Origin: Eledone cirrhosa
Taxonomy: Eukaryota
Length of the DNA: 64,000 nucleotides
Reading direction: 5' to 3'
NCBI GenBank assembly: GCA_964016885.1
Contig: OZ024747.1
Coordinates: 90,272,001-90,336,000, forward strand
Below, piece after piece: positions 1 to 62,620 of the stretch. A program made the translations under genes and the position numbers. Position 1 is the stretch's first letter, and each line of letters starts with the position of its first letter. Under the pieces are notes generated by a model. The model was not told the DNA's origin and ran no database searches. It saw only the letters and a list, made by a program, of their open reading frames with translations.

Positions 1-284
1 TCACCTCATCCTAACTCTGGCTACAACAATTCCACCACACACTTCTCCACAGATAAGTAGATCACATAAGCTGTCAACAACTTCTACTGAACATTTTGGT
101 TGATGAAAGATTTCATTCCTTGGCTGCTCTCATTGCTAACCACTTCAAATTCAGATATAGAAAAGAAGAGACTAGTTAGGCTGGTTAAATATATCAATAA
201 TGGATAAAAGAAAATAACCTGGGGAGAGGTGAGTGAGGAAAGTGTTCTGCATAATATATATTTATATATAATAATAATGATAAT

Positions 285-654
285 AATTGTTTCTACTTTA
301 GGCACAAGGTCAGCAATTACCCAGTACATTACTGGTACTTTATTTTATCGACCCCGTAAGGATGAAAGGCAAAGTTAACCTCGGCGGGATTTGAACTCAG
401 ACTGTAAAGGGACGGTACAGTGCTCAGGTGCATTACAACTTATCAAAGGTGCATGTATAGTACATATAATAATTGTTTCTACTTTAGGCACAAGGCCAGC
501 AATTACCCAGTACATTACTGGTACTTTATTTTATCTACCCCGTAAAGATGAAAGGCAAAGTTAACCTCGGCAGGATTTGAACTCAAACTGTAAAGGGACG
601 TAACTATGCTAGAAAGCATGGAGTCCAACCCTCTACCGATACTGCCAATTCACC
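285..654 (-). mobile_element. SINE family A, two copies (285-414 partial; 471-654)
   Basis: Reverse complement of the exemplar. Confidence 0.85.
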
Positions 655-19207: not shown

Positions 19208-19254
<47 letters not shown>

Positions 19255-19256
19255 TA

Positions 19257-20110
19257 TCATCATGATCGTTTAATGTCCATTTTCAACGCTAACATGGGTT
19301 AGGCAGGTTGTCCCATTTGAGGCAAGTCAGGTCAGGGGATCGTGTCTTGTTCATATAGGACTGTTTCTGGCTAGGTTTTTTACGGCTGGATGCCCTTCCT
19401 AATGCCAACAACTTTACAGAGTGTGCTGGGTGCTTTTGTCATGACACCAAACACAACCACTTTACAGAGTGTGCTGGGTGCTTTTGTCATGACACCTACA
19501 CAACCACTTTACAGTGTGTGCTGGGTGTTTTTGTCATGACACCTACACAACCACTTTACAGTGTGTGCTGGGTGCTTTTGTCATGACACCTACACAACCA
19601 CTTTACAGTGTGTGCTGGGTGTTTTTGTCATGACACCTACACGACCACTTTACAGTGTGTGCTGGGTGCTTTTGTCATGACACCTACATGACCACTTTAC
19701 AGTGTGTGCTGGGTGCTTTTGTCATGACACCTACACAACCACTTTACAGTGTGTGCTGGGTGCTTTTGTCATGACACCTACATGACCACTTTACAGTGTG
19801 TGCTGGGTGCTTTTGTCATGACACCTACACAACCACTTTACAGTGTGTGCTGGGTGCTTTTGTCATGACACCTACATGACAACTTTACATTGTGGGCTGG
19901 ATGTTTTGTGGTACCAACATAACTTTACAAAGTAAGGGTGGTAGGGAGGTGTAGGGTGTGTATTGGATGAAGGGGTGCCTACAAGGCAGGTTTTCTGTAT
20001 TACTGCATAACTCCAAAGATCTCGATCCTGTGCCATTGTCTTAGAGAGGTTCGAGTGTGTAAGGTCTGCTTTTATCACCGCATTCCAGGGTTTTCTGGGT
20101 CTACCTATTA
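19257..20110 (-). mobile_element. RTE 3' fragment with 47-bp minisatellite (about 10 copies) in 3' UTR
   Basis: ORF tail GRPRKPWNAVIKADL...QDRDLW. Unit GACACCTACACAACCACTTTACAGTGTGTGCTGGGTGCTTTTGTCAT over about 19405-19900. Confidence 0.88.
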
Positions 20111-20125
20111 ATTTTGATCGCCCTG

Positions 20126-20161
<36 letters not shown>

Positions 20162-20359
20162 TATATATATGTATACGTACATACATATATGTATACAGAC
20201 ATACAGTAGTATGTATATATATATACATACATGCACACATATATATATGTACGCATAGGTTTACCAAACATTTATTATAATGTTCGGATTGTTTGTAAAA
20301 AAACAGCCCGAATTAATCCGTACAGTGTTCAGCAACCATCGTTGCTGTTTTGTTCAACA

Positions 20360-20428
20360 CTGACACAGGAACGATGTACTAGTTTCAAGCTTTTTAGCTA
20401 TCGTCAGCATCGTATACCTTCCTGTCAG
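20360..20428 (-). ncRNA. Type I hammerhead ribozyme, family R1 (inverted partner)
   Basis: Minus strand ACGATG-CTGACGA-TAGCT(AAAA)AGCTT-GAAA-CTAG-TA-CATCGT. Confidence 0.87.
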
Positions 20429-20733
20429 CTGATTGAATGTTCGAAAGTATATACTTTCCTTATGCATATTAACAGGTGAGCAGCCTAATTTGCATATCGA
20501 GTGAGTTAGTTGGCCGGGCGTACCGAAAACGATAAATGGAAAAAAATAAAACGAAATTTCATACTTATATTTACGTATCAGCCATACTAAGAGTGAGAAA
20601 TGAAATTTTGTTTCATTTTTTTCCATTTATCGTTTTCGGTACGCCCAACCGACTAACTCACTTGATATGCAAATTAGGCTGCTCAGCCGTTAATATGCAT
20701 AAGGAAAGTATATACTTTCAAATGTTCAATCAT

Positions 20734-20802
20734 CTGACAGGAAGGTATACGATGCTGACGATAGCTAATAAGCTTGAAACTAGTACATCGTTCCTGTGTC
20801 AG
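20734..20802 (+). ncRNA. Type I hammerhead ribozyme, family R1
   Basis: ACGATG-CTGACGA-T.AGCT(AATA)AGCT.T-GAAA-CTAG-TA^-CATCGT. 6-bp stem I extended by CTGACAGGAA/TTCCTGTGTCAG across a GGTAT bulge. GUA cleavage triplet. Confidence 0.88.
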
Positions 20803-21140
20803 TGTTGAACAAAACAGCAACGATGGTAGCTGAACACTGTACGGATTAATTCGGGCTGTTTGTTTACAAACAAACCGAACATTATAATAAATGTTCGGTA
20901 AACCCATGCGTACATATATATATGTGTGCATGTATGTATATATATACATGCTACCGTACGTCTGTATACATATATGTATGTACGTGTACATACTTATATT
21001 TAAGTATCAGCCGTACTAAGAGTGAGAAATGAAATTTCGTTTCATTTTTTTTTCATATATACATATAGATATATATGTATATATGTATGTATACATATAT
21101 ATATATGTATATATGTATATATACACATATATATATACAT

Positions 21141-22436
21141 ATATTGTTATACTTTGGGAGGGTCATGTTGCCAATAAGAAACACACGCACCAGTTGCTTT
21201 CACTTCAATTTAATTTATTAAATATTTATAAATTTACAAATTTATAAATTTATAAATTTCTGGTTGGTTGGTTGGTTCCACAACCAGATAGTTGTTTATA
21301 TATATATAGTCATAGTTCTTTCGTCACACACTCTGTGACCTCTTCAGTGACTGGGGATTTCTTTCTTCGTTTCTGTGCCTTTCCTTTCTTCTATCCTACG
21401 CCATTTTGTTTGTGTGTGGGTTGCGTGCTCAGTTTGCGCATGCGCCACATCCGGGTGTCTGTGTGTGTTTGTGTTCATTTTTCTATTTTTTTATTTATAT
21501 TTTTCTATTTGTTTGTTTATTTATTTATTTATTGTTGGTTGGTTGTTTGTTCTATGTGTGTGTGTGTTTTCATTTTGTCTTGTGTGTGTTTTCATTTTGT
21601 GTGTGTTTTCAATTGTAAGTTGTTTGTTCTATGTGTGTGTGTGTTTTCATTTTGTCCTTAATTGTAAGTTGTGATGTTGCTGTTCCACTCATATTTTCTA
21701 TTTAATTTTGGTTTTAATTCTTTTATGCTTACTGCCTCTGTAATTTGCCTAAACATTGCGTCTTTCTTGTGTGTGGATTCTATTTTTATTTCTATGCTCT
21801 CTAATTTACCCCTGTGTTCTATCTTAGCATGTTGGTAGAGCACAGATGATTCTTTACTATCTTGGAGGTCTCGCCAGTGTTCATTTATTCGTTCCCCTAT
21901 ACTACGAGCTGTCTCACCTATGTACACTATATTTTTGTTTCTACATTGTCCTTCAGTACATCTTATGCTATATACTACATTTCTAGTTTTACAGTTAATA
22001 TGGGGGCTTATTTTACAGGTTATACATTTCTTATCTATACATGAGGGTCTTTGGAACGGGTATGTCTTGCTAATAAGTGTTTTTACGGAGGTACCAGGTC
22101 TTTCTACTATCTTAATATTGAGATTATGTTTCTTTAGGGCCCTTCTAAATTTGTAGGCTAGTTCGCCTCTAGGGGTTGTATTGAGGAACATTACACTCTG
22201 GTATTTATTGCTATCATACCATGAGTTTATTCTATTGGCCTTGTTCTTAGTTCTTTCTATTCTATTCCAAAATTTGCTCCTATACAAGGGGCAGGTCCCA
22301 TTTATGTCATTATTTACCATTTTTTCCCATTTGGTTCTGGCTCCTTTATACACTCTGATTCTATCTCTCTGATTGTAGCCAGAGAACTGCATACGGTGGA
22401 TGAAGTGTTGTATGTGTCTCTCTAGTTCTTCGGGGT

Positions 22437-22440
<4 letters not shown>
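21141..22440 (-). mobile_element. 5'-truncated Penelope-like element (RT thumb, Cys-rich linker, GIY-YIG endonuclease, 3' pLTR with HHR)
   Basis: ORF 21658-22440: ...MQFSGY...RPSCIDKKCITC...NCKTRNVVYSIRC...VYIGETARSIGERINEH...SVLYQH...RQITEAVSI...PKLNRKYEW. Both ends abut (TA)n. Confidence 0.9.
21308..21352 (-). ncRNA. Minimal hammerhead ribozyme in Penelope pLTR
   Basis: Minus strand AGTCA-CTGAAGA-G-GTCACA(GAGTG)TGTGAC-GAAA-G(AA)C-TA-TGACT, about 300 nt downstream of the GIY-YIG stop. Partial copy at 23059-23097 (+). Confidence 0.82.
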
Positions 22441-22542: not shown

Positions 22543-23008
22543 TATCACCATCATCATCATCATCACCGTTTTACGTCCGTTCTTGCACGCTAGCATGGGT
22601 TAGACGGGTTGTCCTGTTGTGGGCAGTGTCTGGTCGGCTGACCATGCCTTGCTCATACAGGAACTGATTTGGCTTGATTTCTACAGCTGGATGCCCTTCC
22701 TAACACCAACCTCATTTACAGTGAGTGCTGGGTGCTTTTTCGTGGCGCCTACACGTCCATTTTACAGTGCGGGCTGGGTGCTTTTTTGCCGTGGCACCTC
22801 CACGACCACCTTGCGGTGGGGGGTGTGGGAGCATATTGTCTATATGCTTCAGCTTGTACCCATGGGAGGTCGGGTACTCTGTATTACTGTGTGACGCCAA
22901 AGGTCACGGTCGTGTGTCATTGCCTTTGAGAGGTGTAATTGGGTAAGGTCGGCTTTTATCACCTCATCCCAGGTCATCTTGGGTCTCCCCACTCCGCGGT
23001 TTCCATCA
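22543..23008 (-). mobile_element. RTE 3' fragment (second subfamily) inserted in (TA)n between the Penelope body and its inverted pLTR
   Basis: (ATC)n tail, GGATGCCCTTCCTAACACCAACC UTR motif, ORF tail. Homologous to 30515-30990. Confidence 0.85.
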
Positions 23009-23058
23009 ATATATATATATATACATATATTTCGTTTCTGAATTTGTTTAGCAAGATT

Positions 23059-23250
23059 CTGAAGAGGTCACAGAATGTGTGACGAAAGAACTTTGACAAT
23101 ATATGAACAACCGCCCGGTTGTGGAACCAACCAACCGGAAAGTTATAAATTCTTAAATTTATAAATTTAATTTATAATAAATTGGAATGAAAGCAACTGG
23201 TGCGTGTGTTTCTTATTGGCACCATGACCCTCCCAAAGCATAACAATATA
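23059..23250 (+). mobile_element. Inverted pLTR copy of the Penelope-like element at 21141-21347
   Basis: Reverse complement of 21141-21347 with scattered substitutions. Begins at the HHR core CTGAAGA and ends in (TA)n. Confidence 0.85.
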
Positions 23251-26443: not shown

Positions 26444-26783
26444 GGAGGCATATGGCTTAGTGGTTAAAGCATTGGGCTTGCAATCGAAAGGTTGTGAGTT
26501 CAATTCTCAGACCTGGTGATGTGTTGTTTCCTTGAGCAAGACACTTTATTTCACATTGCTCCAGTTTACTCAGCTGTAGAAATGAGATGATAGGGACTGG
26601 GGTCCATATCATTCCACTGCAAAGTGGTCGTGGAGGTGCCACGGCAAAAAAGCACCCAGCCCACACTGTAAATGAGGTTGGTGTTAGGAAGGGCATCCAG
26701 CTGTAGAAATCAAGTCAGAATCAGTTCCCGTCCCACCCTTGCAAGCAGAGAAAAGCGGACGTAAAACGAAATGAAATGAATGA
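26444..26783 (+). mobile_element. tRNA/CORE-type SINE family B with RTE-derived 3' tail
   Basis: A box TGGCTTAGTGG, B box GAGTTCAATTC, CORE-like CCTTGAGCAAGACACTTTA, tail GGTTGGTGTTAGGAAGGGCATCCAGCTGTAGAAA...GCGGACGTAAAA shared with the RTE UTR. Confidence 0.85.
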
Positions 26784-30352: not shown

Positions 30353-31790
30353 ATCATCATCAACATCATCATCATCATCTTCATCATCATCGTTTAACGT
30401 CCATTTTCCACACTAGCATGGGTTAGACGGGTTGCCCCATTTGAGGCAAGTTGGGTCAGGTGGTGATGTTTTACTCATATAGAACTGTTTCTGGCTAGGT
30501 TTCTAGGGCTGTTTCATCATCATCATCATCACCATTTTACATCCGTTCTTCCACGCTAGCATGGGTTAGATGGTTTGTCCTGTTGTGGGCAGTAGCCGGT
30601 CGGCTGACCATGCCTTGCTCATACGGGAACTGATTCTGGCTTGATTTCTACAGCTGGATGCCCTTCCTAACACCAACCTCATTTACAGTGAGTGCTGGGA
30701 GCTTTTTTCCCTGGCGCCTACACATCCACTTTACAGTGTGGGCGGGGTGCTTTTTTGCCGTGGCACCTCTATGACCACTTTGCAGTGGGAGGGTGTGGAG
30801 CATATTGTCTATATGCTTCAGCTTCGGCTTGTACCCGTGGTGAGTCGGGTCTTCTGTATTACTGCGTGATGCCAGAAGTCACGGTCGTGTGTCATCATCT
30901 TTGAGAGGTGTAATTGGGTAAGGTCACCTTTTATCACCTCATCTCAGGTCTTGTTGGGTCTCCCCACTCTGCGGTTTCCATCGACTTCTAATGCTCTGCA
31001 CCTTTTTATGCAGTTGTCATCCTTCATATGCATCACATGTCCATACCAATGCAACCTCCTCTCCTGCACACAGCATTTGATTCCTCTTATGCTCAGTCTC
31101 TCTCTCAATTCGTTTATGCTTTGCCGTTCACGTATATTACTATTACACATCCATCAGAGCATGCAGGCTTTGTTTCTTTCTAATCTATGCAAGTCTTCCA
31201 CAGACAGCGCCCAGGTCTCACTACCATGTAACATTGCTGTTCGTATACACGCATCATACAGTCTGCCTTTCATTTTGAGTTAAAAGCCTTTTGCAGCTAG
31301 CAGTGGCAGTAGCTCCCTGAACTTCTTCCATCCCTTCCTAATAACAACCATATTTATAGTGTGTGTTGGGGGCTATTCATTGTCACTCCTACATGACACT
31401 TTACAGTGCAGGCTGGGTGCTTTATGTCAAGACACCTACACAACTACTTTACATTGTGGGTTGGGTGCTTTATGTCATGACACCTACACAACCACTTTAC
31501 AGTGTGGGTTGGGTGGTTTTATCATGACATCTACACAACCACGTTACAGTGTGGGCTGGGTGCTTTTTGTTGTGACACCTACACAACCACTTTACTGTGT
31601 GGGATGGATACTTTTTGTCATGACACCTACACAACCACTTTACAGTGTGGGCTGGGTGCTTTTTGTCATGACACCTACACAACCACTTTACTGTGTGGGA
31701 TGGATACTTTTTGTCATGACATCTACACAACCACTTAATAGTATGTGCTGGATATGTTTTGTTCACAGTGTAAGGGTGTTGTAGACAGGA
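30353..31790 (-). mobile_element. Nested RTE 3' fragments; 47-48 bp minisatellite at about 31395-31760
   Basis: ORF remnant MCNSNIRERQSINELRERL...RRLHWYGHVM (30944-31150). Two (ATC)n tails (30353, 30515). Confidence 0.85.
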
Positions 31791-34072: not shown

Positions 34073-34367
34073 TGTGAGTTCAATTCTCAGACCGGGTGAT
34101 GTGTTGTTTCCTTGAGCAAGACACTTTATTTCACATTGCTCCAGTTTACTCAGCTGTAGAAATGAGATGATAGAGACTGGGGTCCCTATCATTCCACTGT
34201 AAAGTGGTCGTGGAGGTGCCACGGGAAAAAAGCACCCAGCACTCACTGTAAATGAGGTTGGTGTTAGGAAGGGCATCCAGCTGTAGAAATCAAGCCAGAA
34301 TCAGTTCCCGTCACACCCTTGCAAGCAGGGAAAAGCGGACGTAAAATGATGATGATGATGATGATGA
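34069..34367 (+). mobile_element. SINE family B (5'-truncated) in (TA)n
   Basis: Near-identical to 26489-26783, with (GAT)n tail. Confidence 0.85.
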
Positions 34368-34380
34368 TATATATATATAT

Positions 34381-37687
<3,307 letters not shown>

Positions 37688-40600
37688 ACAACCCATCATC
37701 CCTCCCTCCCGCCCCCACGCACCACCATTATTACGTGGACCAATCATAAGTCAGAGGCCCATACTATCGCTTAACTGGTTGCTTTTCGATATGATGGATG
37801 GACTACGGAATTCTGGAGAGTTGAAGAGAGAAAAATGTGGACGCTCAGCGACAATGCCAAAGATAAAGCCAAATTCACCTCGTGGACGAGAATGCAAGCA
37901 CTCCTCCTTGTTTCGGCCCAGGATGGCTAACATAACCCCATCCCCCCCCGCGCCCCACTGCTCCCACCCTCCAAAAGCAATCCAAAACTTCAGAGTTGGT
38001 ACCACGAATGTAGGCACCTTAAAGGGTCGCTCTAACGAGGTTGTAGAAATGCTTGAACGTAAGGAGGTCGATGTTTGTTGTATTCAAGAGACCAGGTGGA
38101 GGGGAGGGTCGGCTAGATTCATCGTGGGTAAAGAGCGATGCTATAAGCTTTTCTGGGTGGGAAATGACAATGGGTTGGGTGGGGTAGGAATCATGGTAGC
38201 AGAAAAGTGGGCAGATAAGATAATAGACGTAAATAGAGTGAACGACAGAATAATTAAAATAAGACTTGTCCTCAATAAAACTACGGTGACAGTAATATCT
38301 GCGTACGCACCCCAATCCGGACTGCCCCGCGCTATAAAAGACAGATTCTACGAGACACTGATGCTCGCTACCTCCCAAATAACCGACAGTGACTATATAG
38401 TTATTGCAGGCGACCTAAATGGTCACGTTGGACAACATTGTGACGGCTATGACGGAATCCATGGAGGCTATGGGTTCGGTACTAGAAATGAGGAAGGCTC
38501 CAGAATCCTGGAATTCTGCGACGCAAATAACTTAACTATCTGTAACACTAACTTCAAAAAACGAGACAATCACTTGATCACCTATAGATCGGGGGAACAC
38601 ACAAGCCAGGTAGATTATATCCTTACCAGAAGACGTGACAGAGTGTCTGTTGTTAACACTAAATCCCACCCCCATGAAGAATTCACCTCCCAACATAGAC
38701 TGATAATTAGCGACCTCATAGTCAGGACGAGACGTACTAGACAGCGGAAGAGGACTATCCTCAGGAGAAAAATATGGAAGCTAAAGGACCCCATAGCCAG
38801 AAATAAATTTCAAAGCAAATTACTTGACGCTTTCGACAGTAAGGAAGAGCAATTAGAGTCGTATAATATAGAGGAACAGTGGGAATTCCTGAGAGCAAAC
38901 CTGCTGACGGCGGCAGACGAAGTCTGTGGCTGGAGCAGGCCTGTAGGTAGGAGGAGAGTAACATGGTGGTGGAACAGTAAGGTGGAGGAGTCAATTAAGG
39001 CCAAAAAGCAGGCTTGGAAAGTATGGCGGGATGGGGGAAGTAGAGAAGACTATCAAGTGGCCAGGAGGGAAGCTAGGAGACAAGTGTACTTCGCAAGAAG
39101 GGAAGCAGAGGAAAGAAAGTTCAAGCATGTTCTACAACGTGAGGACCAAAAACGTGAGGTGTTCAGGATTGCCAGGCAATGTGTCAAGGAAAACCGTGAT
39201 ATTGTCGGGGACAATATCACGGTTTTCCTTAACATCGTTAAGTGTGTACTTAACGATGATGGCATACTTGCCATCACCGACGCTGATAAGAAGGTAGCTT
39301 GGAAGTGTCACTACGAAAGGCTTCTAAATGAGGAGAACAAATGGGAGAAAGACAGTCTCCCCCAGATCGATCCAATAGAGGGACCAGCAGTGTTAGTTGA
39401 AGGTAGTATAATAAGTAAGGCAATCAAAGATATGAAGACGGGTAAGGCGGCTGGGCCTTCGGAAATAGTTGCTGAGATGCTGAAGGCATCTGGTTCGGTG
39501 GGACACACCATGGTCACCCGGATAGTTAACCAAGTCGTACAGAATGGGGTTGTTCCGAAGGAATGGCGTAGCAGCATCATCGTTAACTGCTATAAGGGAA
39601 AAGGAGATGCCCTAGATAGGAGTAACTATAGAGGCATTAAATTAATCGACCAGGTCATGAAGGTCACGGAAAAAGTAATAGCGCAACTAATCAGAGAGAG
39701 AATTGATCTAGATGAAATGCAGTTCGGGTTTGTGTCAGGCAAAAGTACCACAGACGCTCTTTTCATTGTACGACAACTACAGGAGAAGTACCTAGCTAAA
39801 AGTAAACCCCTATACTTAGCTATTGTCGACTTGGAGAAAGCCTTCGACAGAGTCCCCCGTTCCATTATCTGGTGGTCTCTTAGAAAACTAGGTGTTGACG
39901 AATGGCTTGTGAGAGCTATACAAGCCATGTATAAAGAAACAGTCAGTAAGGTTAGAATTAACAACGAATATAGTGAAGAGTTTAGCGTAAAAGTTGGTGT
40001 CCATCAGGGCTCTGTACTTAGCCCCCTACTATTTATTATTGCCCTTCAGGCTATAACAGAGGAGTTCAAGACCGGCTGCCCATGGGAACTCCTATACGCA
40101 GATGATCTAACGCTCATAGCTGAATCAATGACCGAACTAGAGAAGAAATTCCAAACGTGGAAGCACGGCCTAGAATCAAAAGGCCTTAAAATTAACCTGG
40201 CTAAGACTAAAGTTCTAGTTTGTAGGAAAGAAAATAAGGCGGCGGTCCCATCGGGGAAATGGCCATGCTCAGTGTGTAGGAAAGGCGTAGGTAGAAACTC
40301 CATTTTATGTCCCAAATGCAAAGTATGGGTGCATAAAAGATGTAGTGGGATCACAGGTAAGCTAACTAAGAACATAGATTTTACATGTGGCCGGTGCTCT
40401 GGTGCAATAAGTAGCAGCAAGTGCCCACAAAATACTAGCTCTTTCAATTGCGCAGAGGGTTCTATAGAAATAGTGGACAGCTTCCGTTATCTGGGTGACA
40501 AAATCAGCAGTGGGGGAGGGTGCTCTGAAAGTACAGTAGCTAGAGTCAGAACTGGATGGAAAAAGTTCAGAGAGCTTATACCACTATTAGCCGCTAGAGG

Positions 40601-41557
40601 GTTCTCCCTAAAAATGAAAGGCAGGTTATACGATGCCTGCATACGAACAGCAATGCTGCATGGCAGTGAGACCTGGGCATTGTGTGCAGAGGATATACGC
40701 AGACTAGAGAGGAACGAAGCTTGCATGCTCCGCTGGATGTGCAATAGTAATATACGCGAACGGCAAAGCATAAACGAACTAAGGAAAAAATTAGAAATAA
40801 GAGGGATCAGATGTTGTTTACTCGAGAGAAGGCTACGTTGGTACGGTCACGTGATGCGCATGAAAGACGACAGCTGTATAACAAAGTGCAGGGCAATAAA
40901 GATAGACGGTAGCCACGGAGTAGGCAGACCCAGAAAAACATGGGACGAGCTGATAAATTCCGACCTCACACGCTTACACCTCTCCAAGACAATGTCACTG
41001 GACCGAGACCTTTGGCGGTACTCAGTAATAGAGAAGACCCGCCTTACCTAAATACAAAGTAAAAACCTACTACAGTCAGTAGGCACCTCTATCAAAACAC
41101 ACCCCCGTCCCACCACCTCCACCCCACCCACACCGCCCCTTTCAATGTAAAGTTATGTTGGTCCCACAACATCCAGGCCGAAACAAATGAGATCGTGTAG
41201 GTGTCACGACAAAAAACACACAGTCCACGCTGTAAATGTGGCCGTGTAGGCAACACGGTAAAAACCTCCCAGCCCCACACTGTAAATGTGGTTGGTGTTA
41301 GGAAGGGCATCCAGCTGTAGAAAACCCGCCAGACAGTCCACGCTGTAATGTGGCCGTGTAGGCAACACGGTAAAAACCTCCCAGCCCCACACTGTAAATG
41401 TGGTTGGTGTTAGGAAGGGCATCCAACTGTAGAAAACCCGCCAGACAGTCCTATGCGAGCAAGACAACCACTCTTGCCTCAAGTGGGAAAACCCCCGTCC
41501 AAACCCATGCAAGCGTGGAACACGGACGCTAAACCTGATGATGATGATGATGATGAT
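37688..41557 (+). mobile_element. Near-full-length RTE LINE (copy 1) with 3' UTR and (GAT)n tail abutting (TA)n
   Basis: ORF above, about 500 bp 3' UTR ending GGACGCTAAACC(TGA)n. The 5' end is fused to a tandem array. No TSD visible. Confidence 0.92.
37791..41051 (+). CDS. RTE-clade LINE ORF: AP endonuclease + reverse transcriptase with internal PHD-type zinc finger
   Basis: Uninterrupted 1090-aa ORF (first ATG 37791). APE motifs TTNVGTL, CIQETRW, ISAYAPQ, AGDLNGH, SQVDYIL, SQHRLII. RT motifs KAAGPSEI, NYRGIKL, QFGF, DLEKAFDRV, GVHQGSVLSPLLF, LYADDL, FRYLG. RTE-type C-terminus RRLRWYGHVMR...GRPRKTW. Confidence 0.96.
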   Translation: MMDGLRNSGELKREKCGRSATMPKIKPNSPRGRECKHSSLFRPRMANITPSPPAPHCSHPPKAIQNFRVGTTNVGTLKGRSNEVVEMLERKEVDVCCIQETRWRGGSARFIVGKERCYKLFWVGNDNGLGGVGIMVAEKWADKIIDVNRVNDRIIKIRLVLNKTTVTVISAYAPQSGLPRAIKDRFYETLMLATSQITDSDYIVIAGDLNGHVGQHCDGYDGIHGGYGFGTRNEEGSRILEFCDANNLTICNTNFKKRDNHLITYRSGEHTSQVDYILTRRRDRVSVVNTKSHPHEEFTSQHRLIISDLIVRTRRTRQRKRTILRRKIWKLKDPIARNKFQSKLLDAFDSKEEQLESYNIEEQWEFLRANLLTAADEVCGWSRPVGRRRVTWWWNSKVEESIKAKKQAWKVWRDGGSREDYQVARREARRQVYFARREAEERKFKHVLQREDQKREVFRIARQCVKENRDIVGDNITVFLNIVKCVLNDDGILAITDADKKVAWKCHYERLLNEENKWEKDSLPQIDPIEGPAVLVEGSIISKAIKDMKTGKAAGPSEIVAEMLKASGSVGHTMVTRIVNQVVQNGVVPKEWRSSIIVNCYKGKGDALDRSNYRGIKLIDQVMKVTEKVIAQLIRERIDLDEMQFGFVSGKSTTDALFIVRQLQEKYLAKSKPLYLAIVDLEKAFDRVPRSIIWWSLRKLGVDEWLVRAIQAMYKETVSKVRINNEYSEEFSVKVGVHQGSVLSPLLFIIALQAITEEFKTGCPWELLYADDLTLIAESMTELEKKFQTWKHGLESKGLKINLAKTKVLVCRKENKAAVPSGKWPCSVCRKGVGRNSILCPKCKVWVHKRCSGITGKLTKNIDFTCGRCSGAISSSKCPQNTSSFNCAEGSIEIVDSFRYLGDKISSGGGCSESTVARVRTGWKKFRELIPLLAARGFSLKMKGRLYDACIRTAMLHGSETWALCAEDIRRLERNEACMLRWMCNSNIRERQSINELRKKLEIRGIRCCLLERRLRWYGHVMRMKDDSCITKCRAIKIDGSHGVGRPRKTWDELINSDLTRLHLSKTMSLDRDLWRYSVIEKTRLT

Positions 41558-41755: not shown

Positions 41756-44597
41756 ATCATCATCATCATCATCATCAACGTTTAACGTCCGTGTTCCACG
41801 CTTGCATGGGTTTGGACGGGGGTAGTCCCACTTGAGGCAAGAGTGATTGTCTTGCTCGCATAGGACTGTCTGGCAGGTTTTCTACAGTTGGATGCCCTTC
41901 CTAACACCAACCACATTTACAGTGTGGGTCTGGGAGGTTTTTACCGTGTTGCCTACACGGCCACATTACAGCGTGGACTGTGTGTTTTTTTGTCGTGACA
42001 CCTACACGATCTCATTTGTTTCGGCCCGGATGGCGCGGCACCAACATAACTTTACATAGGACGGGGTGGTGTGGATGGGGTGGGGGTGGTGGTGGTGGGA
42101 CGGGGTGTATTTTGTTAGAGATGCCTACTGGCAAGGCGGGTCTTCTCTGTTACTGAGTACCGCCAAAGGTCTCGGTCCAGTGACATTGTCTTGGAGAGGT
42201 GTAAGTGTGTGAGGTCGGAGTTTATCAGCTCGTCCCAGGTTTTTCTAGGTCTGCCTATTCCGTGGCTACCGTCTATCTTTATTGCCCTGCACTTTGTTAT
42301 ACAGCTATCGACTTTCATGCGCATCACGTGTCCATACCAACGTAGCCTTCTCTCGAGTAAACAACATCTGATCCCTCTTATCTCTAATTTTTTCCTTAGT
42401 TCGTTTATGCTTTGCCGTTCACGTATATTACTGTTACACATCCAGCGGAGCATGCAAGCTTCGTTCCTCTCTAGTCTGCGTATATCCTCTGCACACAATG
42501 CCCAGGTCTCACTGCCATGCAACATTGCTGTTCGTATGCAGGCATCGTACAACCTGCCTTTCATTTTTAGGGAGAACCCTTTAGCAGCTAATAGTGGTAT
42601 AAGCTCTCTGAACTTTTTCCAACCAGTTCTGACTCTAGCTACAGTACTTTCAGAGCACCCTCCCCCACTGCTGATTTTATCGCCCAGGTAACGGAAGCTG
42701 TCCACTATTTCTATAGAACCCTCTGCGCAATTGAAAGAGCTAGTATTGTGTGGGCACTTGCTGCTACTTATTGCACCAGAACACCGGCCACATGTAAAAT
42801 CTATGTTCTTAGTTAGCTTACCTGTGATCCCACTACATCTTTTATGCACCCATACTTTGCATTTAGGACACAAAATGGAGTTTCTACCTACGCCTTTCCT
42901 ACACACCGAGCACGACCATTTCCCAGAAGGGACCGCCGCCTTGTTTTCTTTCCTACAAACTAGAACTTTGGTCTTAGCCAGGTTAATTTTAAGTCCTTTT
43001 GACTCTAGGCCGTGCTTCCATGTTTGGAATTTCTTCTCTAGCTCGGCCATTGATTCCGCTATGAGTGTCAGGTCGTCTGCGTATAGGAGTTCCCATGGGC
43101 AGCCTGTCTTGAACTCCTCTGTTATAGCCTGAAGGGCAATAATAAATAGTAGGGGGCTGAGAACAGAGCCCTGATGGACGCCAACTTTTACGCTAAACTC
43201 TTCACTATATTCGTTGTTAATTCTAACCTTGCTGACTGTTTCTTTATACATGGCTTGTATAGCCCTCACAAGCCATTCGTCAACGCCTAGTTTTCTAAGA
43301 GCCCACCAGATAATGGAGCGGGGGACTCTGTCGAAGGCTTTCTCCAAGTCGACAAAAGCTAAGTAGAGGGGTTTACCTTTAGCTAGGTACTTCTCCTGTA
43401 GTTGTCGTACTATGAAAAGAGCGTCTGTGGTACTTTTGCCTGACACAAACCCGAACTGCATTTCATCTAGGTCAATTCTCTCTCTGATTAGTTGCGCTAT
43501 TACTTTTTCTGTGACCTTCATGACCTGGTCGATTAATTTAATGCCTCTATAGTTACTCCTATCTAGGGCGTCTCCTTTACCCTTATAACAGTTAACGATG
43601 ATGCTGCTATGCCAGTCCTTCGGAACAACCCCATTCTGTACGACTTGGTTAACTATGCGGGTGACCATGGTGTGTCCCACCGTGCCAGATGCCTTCAGCA
43701 TCTCAGCAACTATTTCCGAAGGCCCAGCCGCCTTACCTGTCTTCATATCCTTGATTGCCTTACTTATTATACTCCCCTCGACTAACACTGCTGGTCCCTC
43801 TATTGGGTCGACATGGGGGAGACTGTCTTTCTCCCATTTATTCTCCTCATTTAGTAGCCTTTCATAGTGACACTTCCAAGCTGCCTTCTTATCAGTGTCG
43901 GTGATGGCAAGTATGCCATCATCGTTAAGTACACACTTCTCCCCGACAATATCACGGTTTTCCTTGACGCATTGCCTAGCAATCCTGAACACCTCACGTT
44001 TTTGGTCATCGCGTTGTAGGACATGCTTGAACTTTCTTTCCTCAGCTTCCCTTCTTGCTAAGTACACTTCTCTCCTAGCTTCCCTCCTGGCCACTTGATA
44101 GTCTACTCTACTTCCCCCATCCCGCCATACTTTCCAAGCCTGCTTTTTGGCCTTAATTGACTCCTCCACCTTACTGTTCCACCACCATGTTACTCTCCTC
44201 CTGCCTACAGGCCTGCTCCAGCCACAGACTTCGTCTGTGGCCAACAGCAGGTTTGCTTTCAGAAATTCCCACTGTCCCTCTATATTGTCCGACTCTAAGT
44301 GTTCTTCCTTACTGTCGAAAGCATCAAGTAATATGTTTTGAAATTTATTTTTGGCTGTGGGGTCCTTTAGCTTCCATATTTTTCTCCTGAGGATAGTCCT
44401 CTTCTGCTGTCGAGTACGTCTCGACCTGACTATGAGGTCGCTAATTATCAGTCTATGTTGGGAGGTGCATTCTTCATGGGGGAGGGATTTAGTGTTTACA
44501 ACAGACACTCTGTCACGTCTTCTGGTAAGGATATAATCTACCTGGCTTGTGTGTTCCCCGGATCTATAGGTGATCAGGTGATTGTCACGTTTTTTTT

Positions 44598-44603
<6 letters not shown>
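41756..44603 (-). mobile_element. RTE LINE copy 2, 5'-truncated, inserted in (TA)n
   Basis: (ATC)n tail at 41756, 3' UTR homologous to copy 1, (TA)n on both sides. Confidence 0.93.
42115..44590 (-). CDS. 5'-truncated RTE LINE ORF (end of APE, RT, PHD finger)
   Basis: 797-aa ORF nearly identical to copy 1. The frame extends upstream to RDNHLITYRSGEHTSQVDYIL. Truncated at the element's own A-tract (poly-T 44590-44603). Confidence 0.94.
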
Positions 44604-44636
<33 letters not shown>

Positions 44637-44640
<4 letters not shown>

Positions 44641-45070
44641 CAGGTACACATACATATATGCACGCATCAGTTTAGCGGACGCTTATTATAACGCCGCTTT
44701 GTTCGTTTGTCAACAAACTGAACAGCCTGAATTTATGCCATACGGTGTTAAGGCAACCACGTCACCTTTTTGTTCAACACTGACACAGGAACGATGTACT
44801 AGTTTCAAGCTTGTTAGCTATCATCAGCACCGTTTACCCATCTGCCAGATAGTTGAACGTTCGAAAGTATATACTTTCCTTATGAAAATTAACGGCTGAG
44901 CAGCCTAATTTGCATATTGAGTGAGTTAAATCGGTCAGGCATACCGAAAACGATAAGTTGAAAAAAAAATGAAAACGAAATTTCATTTCTCACTCTTAGT
45001 ATGGCACTTACTTAAATGTAAGTATGTATGTATACGTACATACATATATGTATACAGACGTACAGTAGCA

Positions 45071-45114
<44 letters not shown>

Positions 45115-45473
45115 CAGGTACACATACATATATGCACGCATCAGTTTAGCGGACGCTTATTATAACGCCGCTTTGTTCATTTGTCAACAAAAAAAAAAAA
45201 AAAAAAAAAAGGTGACGTGGTTGCCTTAACACCGTATGGCATAAATTCAGGCTGTTCAGTTTGTTGACAAACGAACAAAGCGGCGTTATAATAAGCGTCC
45301 GCTAAACTGATGCGTGCATATATGTATGTGTACCTGTATGTATATATATATATATATGCATGCTACTGTACGTCTGTATACATATATGTATGTACGTATA
45401 CATACATACTTACATTTAAGTAAGTGCCATACTAAGAGTGAGAAATGAAATTTCGTTTTCATTTTTTTTTCAA

Positions 45474-45476
<3 letters not shown>
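44637..45476. mobile_element. Retrozyme-like element R1, locus 2: tandem (474-bp period) + inverted copy
   Basis: CATACAGGTACAC at 44637 and 45111; 45211-45476 is inverted. A further piece lies at 41691-41755 on the other side of LINE copy 2. Confidence 0.8.
44791..44833 (-). ncRNA. Type I hammerhead ribozyme, family R1 (second locus)
   Basis: Minus strand ACGGTG-CTGATGA-TAGCT(AACA)AGCTT-GAAA-CTAG-TA-CATCGT. Changes are confined to N7, loop 2 and a G.U wobble. Confidence 0.86.
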
Positions 45477-45548
<72 letters not shown>

Positions 45549-61999: not shown

Positions 62000-62073
62000 C
62001 AGATTGACTTTGTTAGTTTCAGAAGATCCCGTTAAGGGTGAAAGCAGCGATTCTTTGCTTAAACTTTAATCTG
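62000..62073 (+). ncRNA. Hammerhead-like motif with A4 core variant, family R3
   Basis: AGTTT-CAGAAGA-T.CCC(GTTAA)GGG.T-GAAA-GCA(GCGATTCTT)TGC-TT-AAACT. Stem I extended by CAGATTGA/TTAATCTG. Confidence 0.7.
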
Positions 62074-62172: not shown

Positions 62173-62206
<34 letters not shown>

Positions 62207-62209
<3 letters not shown>

Positions 62210-62619
62210 AAGACAAACATAGAATATTCGAAAATATTCTGTATGTTTATAATAAACATTTTGAAGACCCAATCGCTATAGAATAGAATACGTCATGTAT
62301 TACAATTTCAGATTCTCGACAAAAGTAAGGGAAGTAATCTACGCATTTCATTCTTGTTAGAAATCATCAGGATTACATATCCAATACTTTTATCGAGAAC
62401 GACACAGCTAGAGACTTATAGAATACTTAGCTGTGTACAGGAACTGGTTTGATAGAGCGGTAGCCGGTCCGGCAGAAATTAGAATTTGGATTTAATGCTC
62501 TGAAATAGTGATATATATGTGAAGACAAACATAGAATATTCGAAAATATTCTGTATGTTTATAATAAACATTTTGAAGACCCAATCGCTATAGAATAGAA
62601 TACGTCATGTATTACAATT

Positions 62620-62620
<1 letters not shown>
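62207..62620 (-). mobile_element. Retrozyme-like element R2: about 1.3 monomers of 312 bp in (TA)n
   Basis: 62207-62308 is repeated exactly at 62519-62620. One HHR per monomer. Confidence 0.78.
62313..62399 (-). ncRNA. Type I hammerhead ribozyme, family R2
   Basis: Minus strand GTAATC-CTGATGA-T.TTCT(AACA)AGAA.T-GAAA-TGCG-TA-GATTAC. Stem I extended by TTCTCGATAAAAGTA/TACTTTTGTCGAGAA beyond a TAT bulge. Confidence 0.85.

What the first reader, a model, noticed from the sequence alone, without database searches (positions are those of the whole stretch)
20170..21054. Family R1: 429-bp monomer with a complete hammerhead, candidate circular-RNA retrozyme
Seen: an intact HHR in both arms, with a 6-bp stem I extended over a GGTAT bulge, a 4-nt loop 2, palindromic CTAG stem III and a GUA site. 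The right arm runs beyond one full monomer (period 429), i.e. it is circularly permuted. No credible coding capacity. Known: bulge-loop 2 tertiary contacts accelerate type I HHRs, and palindromic stem III allows dimeric cleavage. Inference: more-than-unit-length copies fit reverse transcription around a circular RNA template.
Basis: partly seen in the sequence, partly recalled or inferred. Interest (0 to 1): 0.85.

Follow-up and report, generated by a model that had tools for sequence, protein, structure and literature searches.

The report
Hammerhead retrozyme with Penelope insertion footprint
This is one old back-to-back copy of a roughly 430-base non-coding repeat whose predicted self-cutting hammerhead motif occurs about 25,000 times in this animal genome; its copies end at two fixed points inside TA microsatellites, as a Penelope-like retrotransposon of the same genome does, whose kind of enzyme likely copies them from a small RNA circle.

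Summary
Confirmed: 20170-21054 is two head-to-head arms of a 429-bp non-coding unit, each with a type I hammerhead core. The core occurs 24,587 times genome-wide, often in tandem arrays: a non-LTR retrozyme family. The proposed random permutation is half wrong: 5' ends are scattered, but 3' ends sit at two fixed sites about 60 nt apart, nearly always running into (TA)n, and two-armed insertions pair one long with one short end (53 of 61). A very young Neptune-like Penelope element in this genome shows the same footprint (17 of 19, 60-nt tail). Copies read through the cleavage site, so the template is a circle or an uncut multimer; substitutions fixed across whole young arrays favour a circle, but some arrays disagree. 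Cleavage, expression and circles are untested; the ribozyme looks weak (U-U at stem II, one-pair stem III). This locus is a dead end: one sense hammerhead per strand inside a 350-bp hairpin. The scan noted similar elements before, here and in other genomes. New member of a known kind, with a testable mechanism.

The parts
20126..20169 (.). (TA)n-rich target run at the left outer end
20170..20562 (-). Left arm, about 0.9 unit, 5'-truncated, ending at the SHORT fixed 3' site next to the TA run
   Evidence: locus L001
20377..20407 (-). Hammerhead core of the left arm (loop 2 AAAA); predicted cut between 20377 and 20376
20560..20562 (.). 3-nt microhomology at the head-to-head junction of the two arms
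   Evidence: (overlap 3 in L001)
20560..20988 (+). One full 429-nt unit of family R1 (right arm); as a circle it folds at -126 kcal/mol, z -8.1 (AT-palindromic tracts inflate this)
20743..20795 (+). Type I hammerhead: 3 bp, UAU/U internal loop, 6-bp stem I (20749-20754 with 20786-20791), core 20755-20785, U-U plus 4-bp stem II, one-pair stem III with CUAG, predicted cut 20785|20786
20906..20988 (+). Internal TA/CA-rich hairpin-forming segment; its length varies between subfamilies (unit 419-538 nt)
20989..21054 (+). The 'tail': start of the next unit, ending at the LONG fixed 3' site
21055..21144 (.). (TA)n-rich target run at the right outer end, shared with the 3' end of a neighbouring Penelope-like element
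21152..22440 (-). Neighbour, not part of R1: 5'-truncated copy of a very young Neptune-like Penelope element (PLE-A): endonuclease-end ORF 21661-22440, own hammerhead-like motif at 21347, short 3' end at 21152; candidate supplier of the enzyme

Best explanation
R1 is a protein-less tandem repeat with a conserved type I hammerhead core whose copies end at two fixed sites in TA microsatellites, and it is likely a non-LTR retrozyme copied in trans by a Penelope-like reverse transcriptase-endonuclease, likely from a small RNA circle. Steps: (1, inferred) tandem arrays are transcribed and neighbouring hammerheads, probably as a dimer because stem III is one base pair, cut out a monomer that a host ligase closes; (2, inferred from footprints and from PMC11167929) the Penelope enzyme cuts both strands of a (TA)n target and each 3' end primes reverse transcription inside the RNA, one at the short site and one at the long site about 60 nt further 3', 210-270 nt downstream of the ribozyme cut; (3, shown as DNA pattern) the two cDNAs run for variable lengths, through the cut site and often for several units, and are joined head to head by a few bases of microhomology, giving an inverted repeat with one long and one short end. 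The window copy is such a product, about 2.6% diverged per arm, and is a dead end as a circle source. The best candidate enzyme is the Neptune-like PLE-A lineage (inferred, weak).
For: 24,587 exact cores, control 0; arrays of 2-7 units in the first 22 Mb of C1, 14 of 59 clusters with two or more same-strand cores. Helices covary between subfamilies and with sister family R2. Two fixed 3' ends into (TA)n; long+short pairing in 53 of 61 two-armed insertions among 142 loci (binomial P 3e-9 against 0.5), 55 of 60 with a second parser; 5' ends scattered over the unit (186 arms in 108 loci). Autonomous PLE-A (1,278-aa frame, tandem period 4,286) shows the same rule: 17 of 19 pairs, ends at +26 and +81 to +86 from the ATG; R2 shows it too. 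Copies starting at the cut site are rare: 2 of 30 loci examined from 187 matches and 5 of 30 from 167 matches. In the 308-nt R2 subfamily (77 matches, all 9 loci examined) 3 loci carry a private substitution in every full unit, and a 9+4-unit array shares its substitution only with a 2-unit locus; among 22 loci of a young R1 subfamily, arrays of 21, 8 and 3 units carry such fixed substitutions and a 15-unit array is invariant. Published retrozymes of coral, mussel and axolotl form circles, and axolotl ones have the same weak features and cut better as dimers (PMC7229834).
Against: No cleavage, transcript or circle was observed. Rfam does not score the motif and the 81-nt fold alone is barely better than shuffles (z -1.6 and -2.1). 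Eight of nine Xenopus retrozyme dimers did not cleave in vitro (bioRxiv 10.64898/2026.07.22.740005), and for the anole Penelope element uncut RNA was the dominant template (PMC11167929). Several arrays carry variants shared by only some units, sometimes across arms (L196, L245, L194, L238, A330, L061), and L086 has an ABAB pattern best read as DNA duplication; a single monomeric circle does not predict these. 'Private' variants could come from source arrays absent from this assembly, and for R1 only 22 loci from the first 100 of 279 matches were examined. R1 has no clear homology to the ends of PLE-A, PLE-B or PLE-C: one 14-of-15 match for one subfamily (P 0.003, one of 9 comparisons, spotted by eye first, not at the same distance from the long end), not significant for the window's own unit (P 0.13).
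Confidence: 0.6

Rival explanations
1. Same family and same Penelope enzyme, but the template is an uncut linear multimeric transcript of a tandem array; the hammerhead is slow or dispensable for insertion, and long arrays are kept up by DNA-level duplication.
For: Every unit has both start sites, so long+short pairing and read-through of the cut site follow equally. Variants shared by some units only, and higher-order blocks. Weak ribozyme anatomy. Ribozyme mutants did not affect insertion by the anole element in vitro (PMC11167929).
Against: Needs a parent array at least as long as each daughter arm; arrays with a substitution in every unit have no such parent among all 9 loci of the R2-308 subfamily. 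Does not explain why hammerhead helices covary across subfamilies and families unless cutting matters at another step.
Confidence: 0.3
2. R1 copies are only the pseudo-LTR remnants of heavily 5'-truncated autonomous Penelope elements.
For: Same ends, target and inversion pattern as autonomous elements; retrozymes in Xenopus are related to pLTRs.
Against: The sequence upstream of each tail is the same 420-540-nt unit, repeated up to 19 times in an arm, not an ORF; I saw no R1 unit serving as the 3' pLTR of an ORF in the loci read, and full-length PLE-A and PLE-C have other pLTRs. Ancient descent from a pLTR remains possible.
Confidence: 0.04
3. Monomers cut by the ribozyme stay linear and the enzyme jumps from one to the next (or to itself) at the cut ends.
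For: Also gives a monomer bottleneck and homogeneous arrays.
Against: Predicts copies that begin at the cut site and scars there; neither is enriched.
Confidence: 0.05
4. A DNA-transposon MITE or foldback element with long terminal inverted repeats.
For: The locus alone looks like a 350-bp inverted repeat.
Against: The two ends differ by about 60 nt, arm lengths vary from 30 to over 3,000 nt, many copies are single-armed or tandem.
Confidence: 0.01

Closest known systems
Animal non-LTR retrozymes (Cervera and de la Pena 2020, PMC7229834; Li, Clavereau and Pollet 2026, bioRxiv 10.64898/2026.07.22.740005)
   Same: Non-coding tandem unit of a few hundred bases, low GC, one type I hammerhead per unit, thousands of copies as monomers and multimers, self-paired predicted circle; U-U at the base of stem II as in axolotl HHR_Amex2 and one-pair stem III with palindromic tetraloop as in HHR_Amex1.
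   Different: Combines both weakening features in one ribozyme; unit (419-538 nt) is above the 170-400 nt of the 2020 paper though inside the 51-972 nt of the 2026 preprint; in the parts I read neither paper describes fixed twin 3' ends, long+short pairing or (TA)n targeting for retrozymes; RNA circles not tested here.
Penelope-like elements, Neptune and Hydra clades (Craig et al. 2021, PMC8557442) and anole Poseidon PAc (Frangieh et al. 2024, PMC11167929)
   Same: Partial tandems, inverted 5'-truncated copy, a tail present at one end only, two internal reverse-transcription start sites, AT-rich or (TA)n targets, no discernible target duplication.
   Different: No ORF; tail about 60 nt rather than 30-40 nt; ribozyme has full stem II and loop 1 rather than the minimal PLE form.
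Non-autonomous Chlamys elements such as MRC1 (PMC8557442, passage)
   Same: Non-autonomous Penelope-type elements that make pLTRs and head-to-tail multicopy insertions.
   Different: Those resemble their autonomous partner at the 3' end, and most Chlamys lack hammerheads; R1 has a hammerhead and no clear partner homology.

Membership tests
Animal non-LTR retrozyme | Short non-coding unit in tandem repeats, each unit with a type I hammerhead | tested here: met
   38 cut-to-cut monomers of 419-538 nt; arrays up to 19 units in an arm; no ORF
Animal non-LTR retrozyme | At least two consecutive intact hammerheads in one orientation (the 2026 preprint's 'active' criterion) | tested here: met
   Met by the family: 14 of 59 clusters on the first 22 Mb of C1. 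Not met by this locus, which has one per strand
Animal non-LTR retrozyme | No LTR, primer-binding site or polypurine tract | tested here: inconclusive
   No LTR architecture in the loci read; PBS and PPT were not searched for
Animal non-LTR retrozyme | Highly self-paired predicted circle | tested here: met
   66-71% paired, z -7.8 to -12.3 for six R1 units, 30 shuffles each; AT-palindromic tracts inflate z
Animal non-LTR retrozyme | Self-cleavage and accumulation of circular RNA | not testable with these tools
   Needs in vitro transcription and RNA from the animal
Type I hammerhead ribozyme | CUGANGA, GAAA and NUH core around three helices, ends in stem I | tested here: met
   core columns invariant in the 17 rows, which were picked with a core pattern
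Type I hammerhead ribozyme | G-C pair at the base of stem II (recalled consensus) | tested here: not met
   U-U in R1 and R2; a natural U-U variant is described for axolotl HHR_Amex2
Type I hammerhead ribozyme | Match to an Rfam hammerhead model | tested here: not met
Type I hammerhead ribozyme | Loop 1 - loop 2 tertiary contact | tested here: inconclusive
   UAU/U loop and UAA-N-AA loop 2 kept in both R1 and R2 while helices covary; the contact itself was not modelled
Penelope-like element (autonomous) | ORF with reverse transcriptase and GIY-YIG endonuclease | tested here: not met
   for other loci
Penelope-mobilised element (footprint) | Two fixed 3' ends (tail), partial tandems, inverted 5'-truncated arm, microsatellite target | tested here: met
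   internal control PLE-A
Penelope-mobilised element (footprint) | Sequence shared with the 3' end of an autonomous partner | tested here: inconclusive
   One 14-of-15 match to PLE-A for one subfamily, otherwise none, three PLE families compared
MITE / foldback DNA transposon | Fixed, equal terminal inverted repeats and a target duplication | tested here: not met
   Unequal ends, variable arms, single-armed and tandem copies; duplications cannot be read in (TA)n

The most novel reading that the evidence does not exclude
The genomic arrays are fossils of double rolling-circle reverse transcription: a dimeric Neptune-type Penelope enzyme primes both cut strands of a TA target on one retrozyme RNA circle, at two fixed sites 60 nt apart, and both active sites roll round it, so that a variant in one RNA molecule is fixed in every unit of both arms. 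With an intact, near-identical-copy enzyme (PLE-A) and invariant young arrays in the same genome, this would be a directly reconstitutable case of a ribozyme circle used as a retrotransposition template.
Probability: 0.35. Interest if true: 0.72.

Novelty: new member of a known kind. Interest (0 to 1): 0.48.

Why it matters
That Penelope-like elements mobilise animal retrozymes, and that the circular RNA is the template, are stated as hypotheses in the papers read (PMC7229834 Discussion; bioRxiv 10.64898/2026.07.22.740005, which lists the mechanism as open). This family supplies a mechanistic footprint: the same twin fixed ends, paired long with short, as an autonomous element of the same genome, together with a candidate enzyme with an intact frame and exact predicted start sites. 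That turns both hypotheses into a simple in vitro assay. Secondarily, thousands of such two-armed insertions form perfect hairpins of several hundred base pairs if transcribed, a large potential source of double-stranded RNA. The single locus itself is ordinary and probably inert.

Tried and rejected
Rfam: no hammerhead hit (the E-value hits are TA-repeat microRNA models). Expression: no RNA holder listed; three contig sets of one sample were laid, no piece spans the locus, so they neither confirm nor question the assembly. Random permutation at both ends: rejected for 3' ends. Linear self-cleaved monomer as main template: no pile-up of 5' ends at the cut; the scaling to about 40 such copies genome-wide is rough, because only the first 30 loci of each list were read and one satellite-like array on C3 fills about half of the first 100 rows. 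Dimeric circle for the ABAB array L086: rejected, the 5'-most unit differs at 4 sites, which fits a later DNA duplication. Collision of the two cDNAs after one turn: long arms cluster loosely at 410-500 nt but the sample is selected and small, so no conclusion. A 2.7-kb spacing between two cores (L083) is not an ORF flanked by R1. R1 versus R2 whole-unit BLAST: only TA-run matches in the part of the output shown, which was cut. Pfam did not score PLE-A or PLE-C frames; clades were assigned from motifs in PMC8557442 (CX4CxxC linker and CCHH for PLE-A, Neptune-like; DKT, RWR, CxCX5C for PLE-C, Hydra-like), not from a tree; homologue search of PLE-C gave unnamed relatives only. Left open: whether any R1 arm is joined head to head to an arm of an autonomous element, which would name the partner directly. 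A-to-I editing as source of the array-wide variants: those in the R2-308 subfamily are A>G or T>C, those in R1 arrays are not all so, numbers too small. Literature searches for a prior description in cephalopods or of the long+short rule found none; the library lacks most subscription papers, and the supplements of PMC8557442 and PMC7229834, which list families by species, were not read and may bear on this.

Full report
Observation. The stretch is an inverted repeat (arms 20216-20562 and 20600-20946, 347 nt, 95% complementary) with a 63-nt direct repeat at spacing 429. Each arm has a hammerhead core with a GUA site (20755-20785 on +, 20407-20377 on -). The arms differ at 18 of 347 sites, so the copy is not young. 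No frame of 120 aa lies in the unit. The genome G000 has 3.0 Gb; no call names the organism.

The ribozyme. Stem I is 6 bp, followed by a UAU/U internal loop and 3 more pairs; stem II has 4 bp over a U-U mismatch; stem III is one A-U pair capped by palindromic CUAG. On 15 R1 and 2 R2 sequences, 99.6% of cells pair and 9 of 14 pairs change on both sides, against 0-2 for slid controls; the rows were picked with a core pattern and most two-sided changes come from R2, with one inside R1. Rfam does not score the motif and the isolated fold is only z -1.6 and -2.1. In PMC7229834 (parts 2-4 of 6 read) one axolotl ribozyme has the U-U mismatch, the other the one-pair stem III; both are weak as monomers and cut better as dimers. 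PMC6765202 (passages) says the same of palindromic short stems III. Activity of R1 is therefore inferred, and probably needs two ribozymes in one RNA.

The family. An exact 31-nt core pattern matches 24,587 times (control 0). The first 100 matches form 59 clusters, 14 with two or more cores on one strand; scaled, about 14,500 loci (an extrapolation from 22 Mb). Cut-to-cut monomers measure 419-538 nt (38 cases) and fold as well-paired circles. A young subfamily (279 matches) has arrays such as 8+8 and 19+3 units, one with no difference among 15 full units. A sister family R2 (310 nt, 8,712 cores) has the same ribozyme plan with other helix sequences. This is the anatomy of animal non-LTR retrozymes (PMC7229834; bioRxiv 10.64898/2026.07.22.740005, parts 1-3 of 5 read).

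Ends. 3' ends fall at two sites, a short and a long one 57-62 nt apart, nearly always followed by (TA)n, about 210 and 270 nt downstream of the cut. Among 142 loci (16 overlapping duplicates dropped) 182 of 216 called ends are clean short or long ends into TA; 61 head-to-head pairs were found, 53 long+short, 6 short+short, 2 long+long (P 3e-9); several exceptions are long ends with damaged tails. A second parser gave 55 of 60, with a few false or duplicated pairs. Junctions mostly show 0-4 nt of overlap; here it is 3 nt. 5' ends are spread over the whole unit (186 arms, 108 loci).

The same footprint in autonomous elements. Next to the finding lies the 3' part of a Penelope-like element (21152-22440, minus). 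Its family, PLE-A, has a 1,278-aa stop-to-stop frame, tandem period 4,286 and copies 0-0.6% apart; its linker and endonuclease motifs fit the Neptune description in PMC8557442 (passages and sections 11 and 15 read). In 20 loci picked as minus-then-plus pairs, 19 gave both ends and 17 pair an end at +26 with one at +81 to +86 from the ATG; one ran off the region and one was an anchor artefact. The tail is thus 55-60 nt, like R1's; the Hydra-like PLE-C has a tail near 90 nt and copies 1.7-3.7% from the reference copy, R2 one near 37 nt. PMC8557442 describes an inverted 5'-truncated copy and a tail often at one end only; PMC11167929 (parts 1-2 of 4 read) shows in vitro that the anole enzyme cuts and extends both target strands, is predicted to be a dimer, and starts at two internal RNA sites that define the tail. 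R1 therefore works like a Penelope substrate. Which family supplies the enzyme is not shown: equal tail length, youth and one 14-of-15 match (P 0.003 in one of 9 comparisons) point weakly to PLE-A or its relatives; other PLE families in the genome were not compared.

Template. If cut linear monomers were copied, inserts would begin at the cut. Patterns designed to catch these gave 187 and 167 matches; 2 of 30 and 5 of 30 loci read lack the upstream ribozyme, the rest are point mutants. So cDNAs run through the site: the template is a religated circle or an uncut multimer. A circle predicts that a variant in one molecule fills the whole new array. In the 308-nt R2 subfamily, all 9 loci examined, three arrays carry a private substitution in every full unit (6; 2+2; 2+1 units) and a 9+4 array shares its substitution only with a 2-unit locus. 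In 22 loci of the young R1 subfamily, arrays of 21, 8 and 3 units do likewise, and many arrays have their own constant microsatellite signature in both arms; privacy there is only among the loci read. Against: L196, L245, L194, L238, A330 and L061 have variants shared by some units only, and L086 shows a two-unit duplication, so multimer templates or later DNA exchange also occur; source arrays may be missing from one assembly. I put the circle at about 0.6 and the uncut multimer at 0.3.

This locus. One sense ribozyme per strand cannot release a monomer, and a transcript across it folds into a single hairpin of -644 kcal/mol that buries both ribozymes. It is a dead-end daughter.

Comparison and novelty. 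It is a new member of a known kind. What I did not find in the parts of the papers read, or in searches, is the twin fixed end with long+short pairing for a retrozyme, or variant-based evidence for a monomer bottleneck; supplements were not read. Notes of this scan (read after my reading was formed) report the same pattern for the 310-nt family and a 420-nt copy in this genome and for elements in other genomes; they are unchecked notes and add no independent support. Interest 0.48: known class, inert locus, but an open mechanistic question made directly testable.

Noticed in passing
window 44603-45545: Second R1 copy, another subfamily (about 82% identical), two-armed, one core at 44827 (minus); its minus arm stops in the internal TA-rich segment against the 5'-truncated end of an RTE-like element.
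   Followed up: partly
window 62200-62620 (minus): Copy of sister retrozyme family R2 (310-nt unit, 8,712 cores genome-wide, arrays up to 27 units), tail to tail with the long 3' end of Hydra-like PLE-C in one TA run.
   Followed up: yes
window 21152-22440 (minus); G000:C3:66543500-66553400: PLE-A: very young Neptune-like Penelope element with a long Asn/Thr/His-rich low-complexity stretch in its 1,278-aa frame; over 100 copies identical at protein level over 260 aa; Pfam does not score it.
   Followed up: partly
window 23011-23237: Miniature two-armed insertion of a PLE-A relative: a 38-nt arm with the long end joined head to head, inside the hammerhead-like motif, to an arm with the short end.
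   Followed up: partly
window 62020-62050; L209: PLE-C (713-aa frame, Hydra-like motifs) has a hammerhead-like motif with CAGAAGA in place of CUGANGA and again a U-U at the base of stem II.
   Followed up: no
window 63815 (+); L004, L005, L040, L041, L043, L109, L010, L105: At least six further hammerhead-like motif families with palindromic stem III loops in the loci read; their carriers were not characterised.
   Followed up: no
window 37689-41051 (+) and 42115-44601 (-): Two RTE-like LINE frames (endonuclease, reverse transcriptase, PHD finger), 1,120 and 828 aa, facing each other.
   Followed up: partly
window 19250-20120, 22550-23000, 31397-31754: RTE-derived short elements with 47-48-nt tandem repeats; one forms the left flank of the finding.
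   Followed up: no
window 34268-34986 (+): Fragment of another Penelope-like endonuclease region, related to PLE-C.
   Followed up: no
G000:C3:12272000-12324200 (L151): Satellite-like R1 array of over 50 kb whose units mostly carry GUG at the cleavage triplet and are 2-4% diverged: DNA-level amplification of a probably inactive variant.
   Followed up: partly
window 280-414, 466-654 and about 15 other places: Very abundant short repeat family of 130-190 nt; a tRNA-like head at 26446-26515 belongs to another abundant short repeat.
   Followed up: no
L210:1500-2300, L098, L046: R1 3' ends directly followed, after a short TA run, by 5'-truncated PLE-C in the same orientation; nested insertion or template switch was not resolved.
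   Followed up: no
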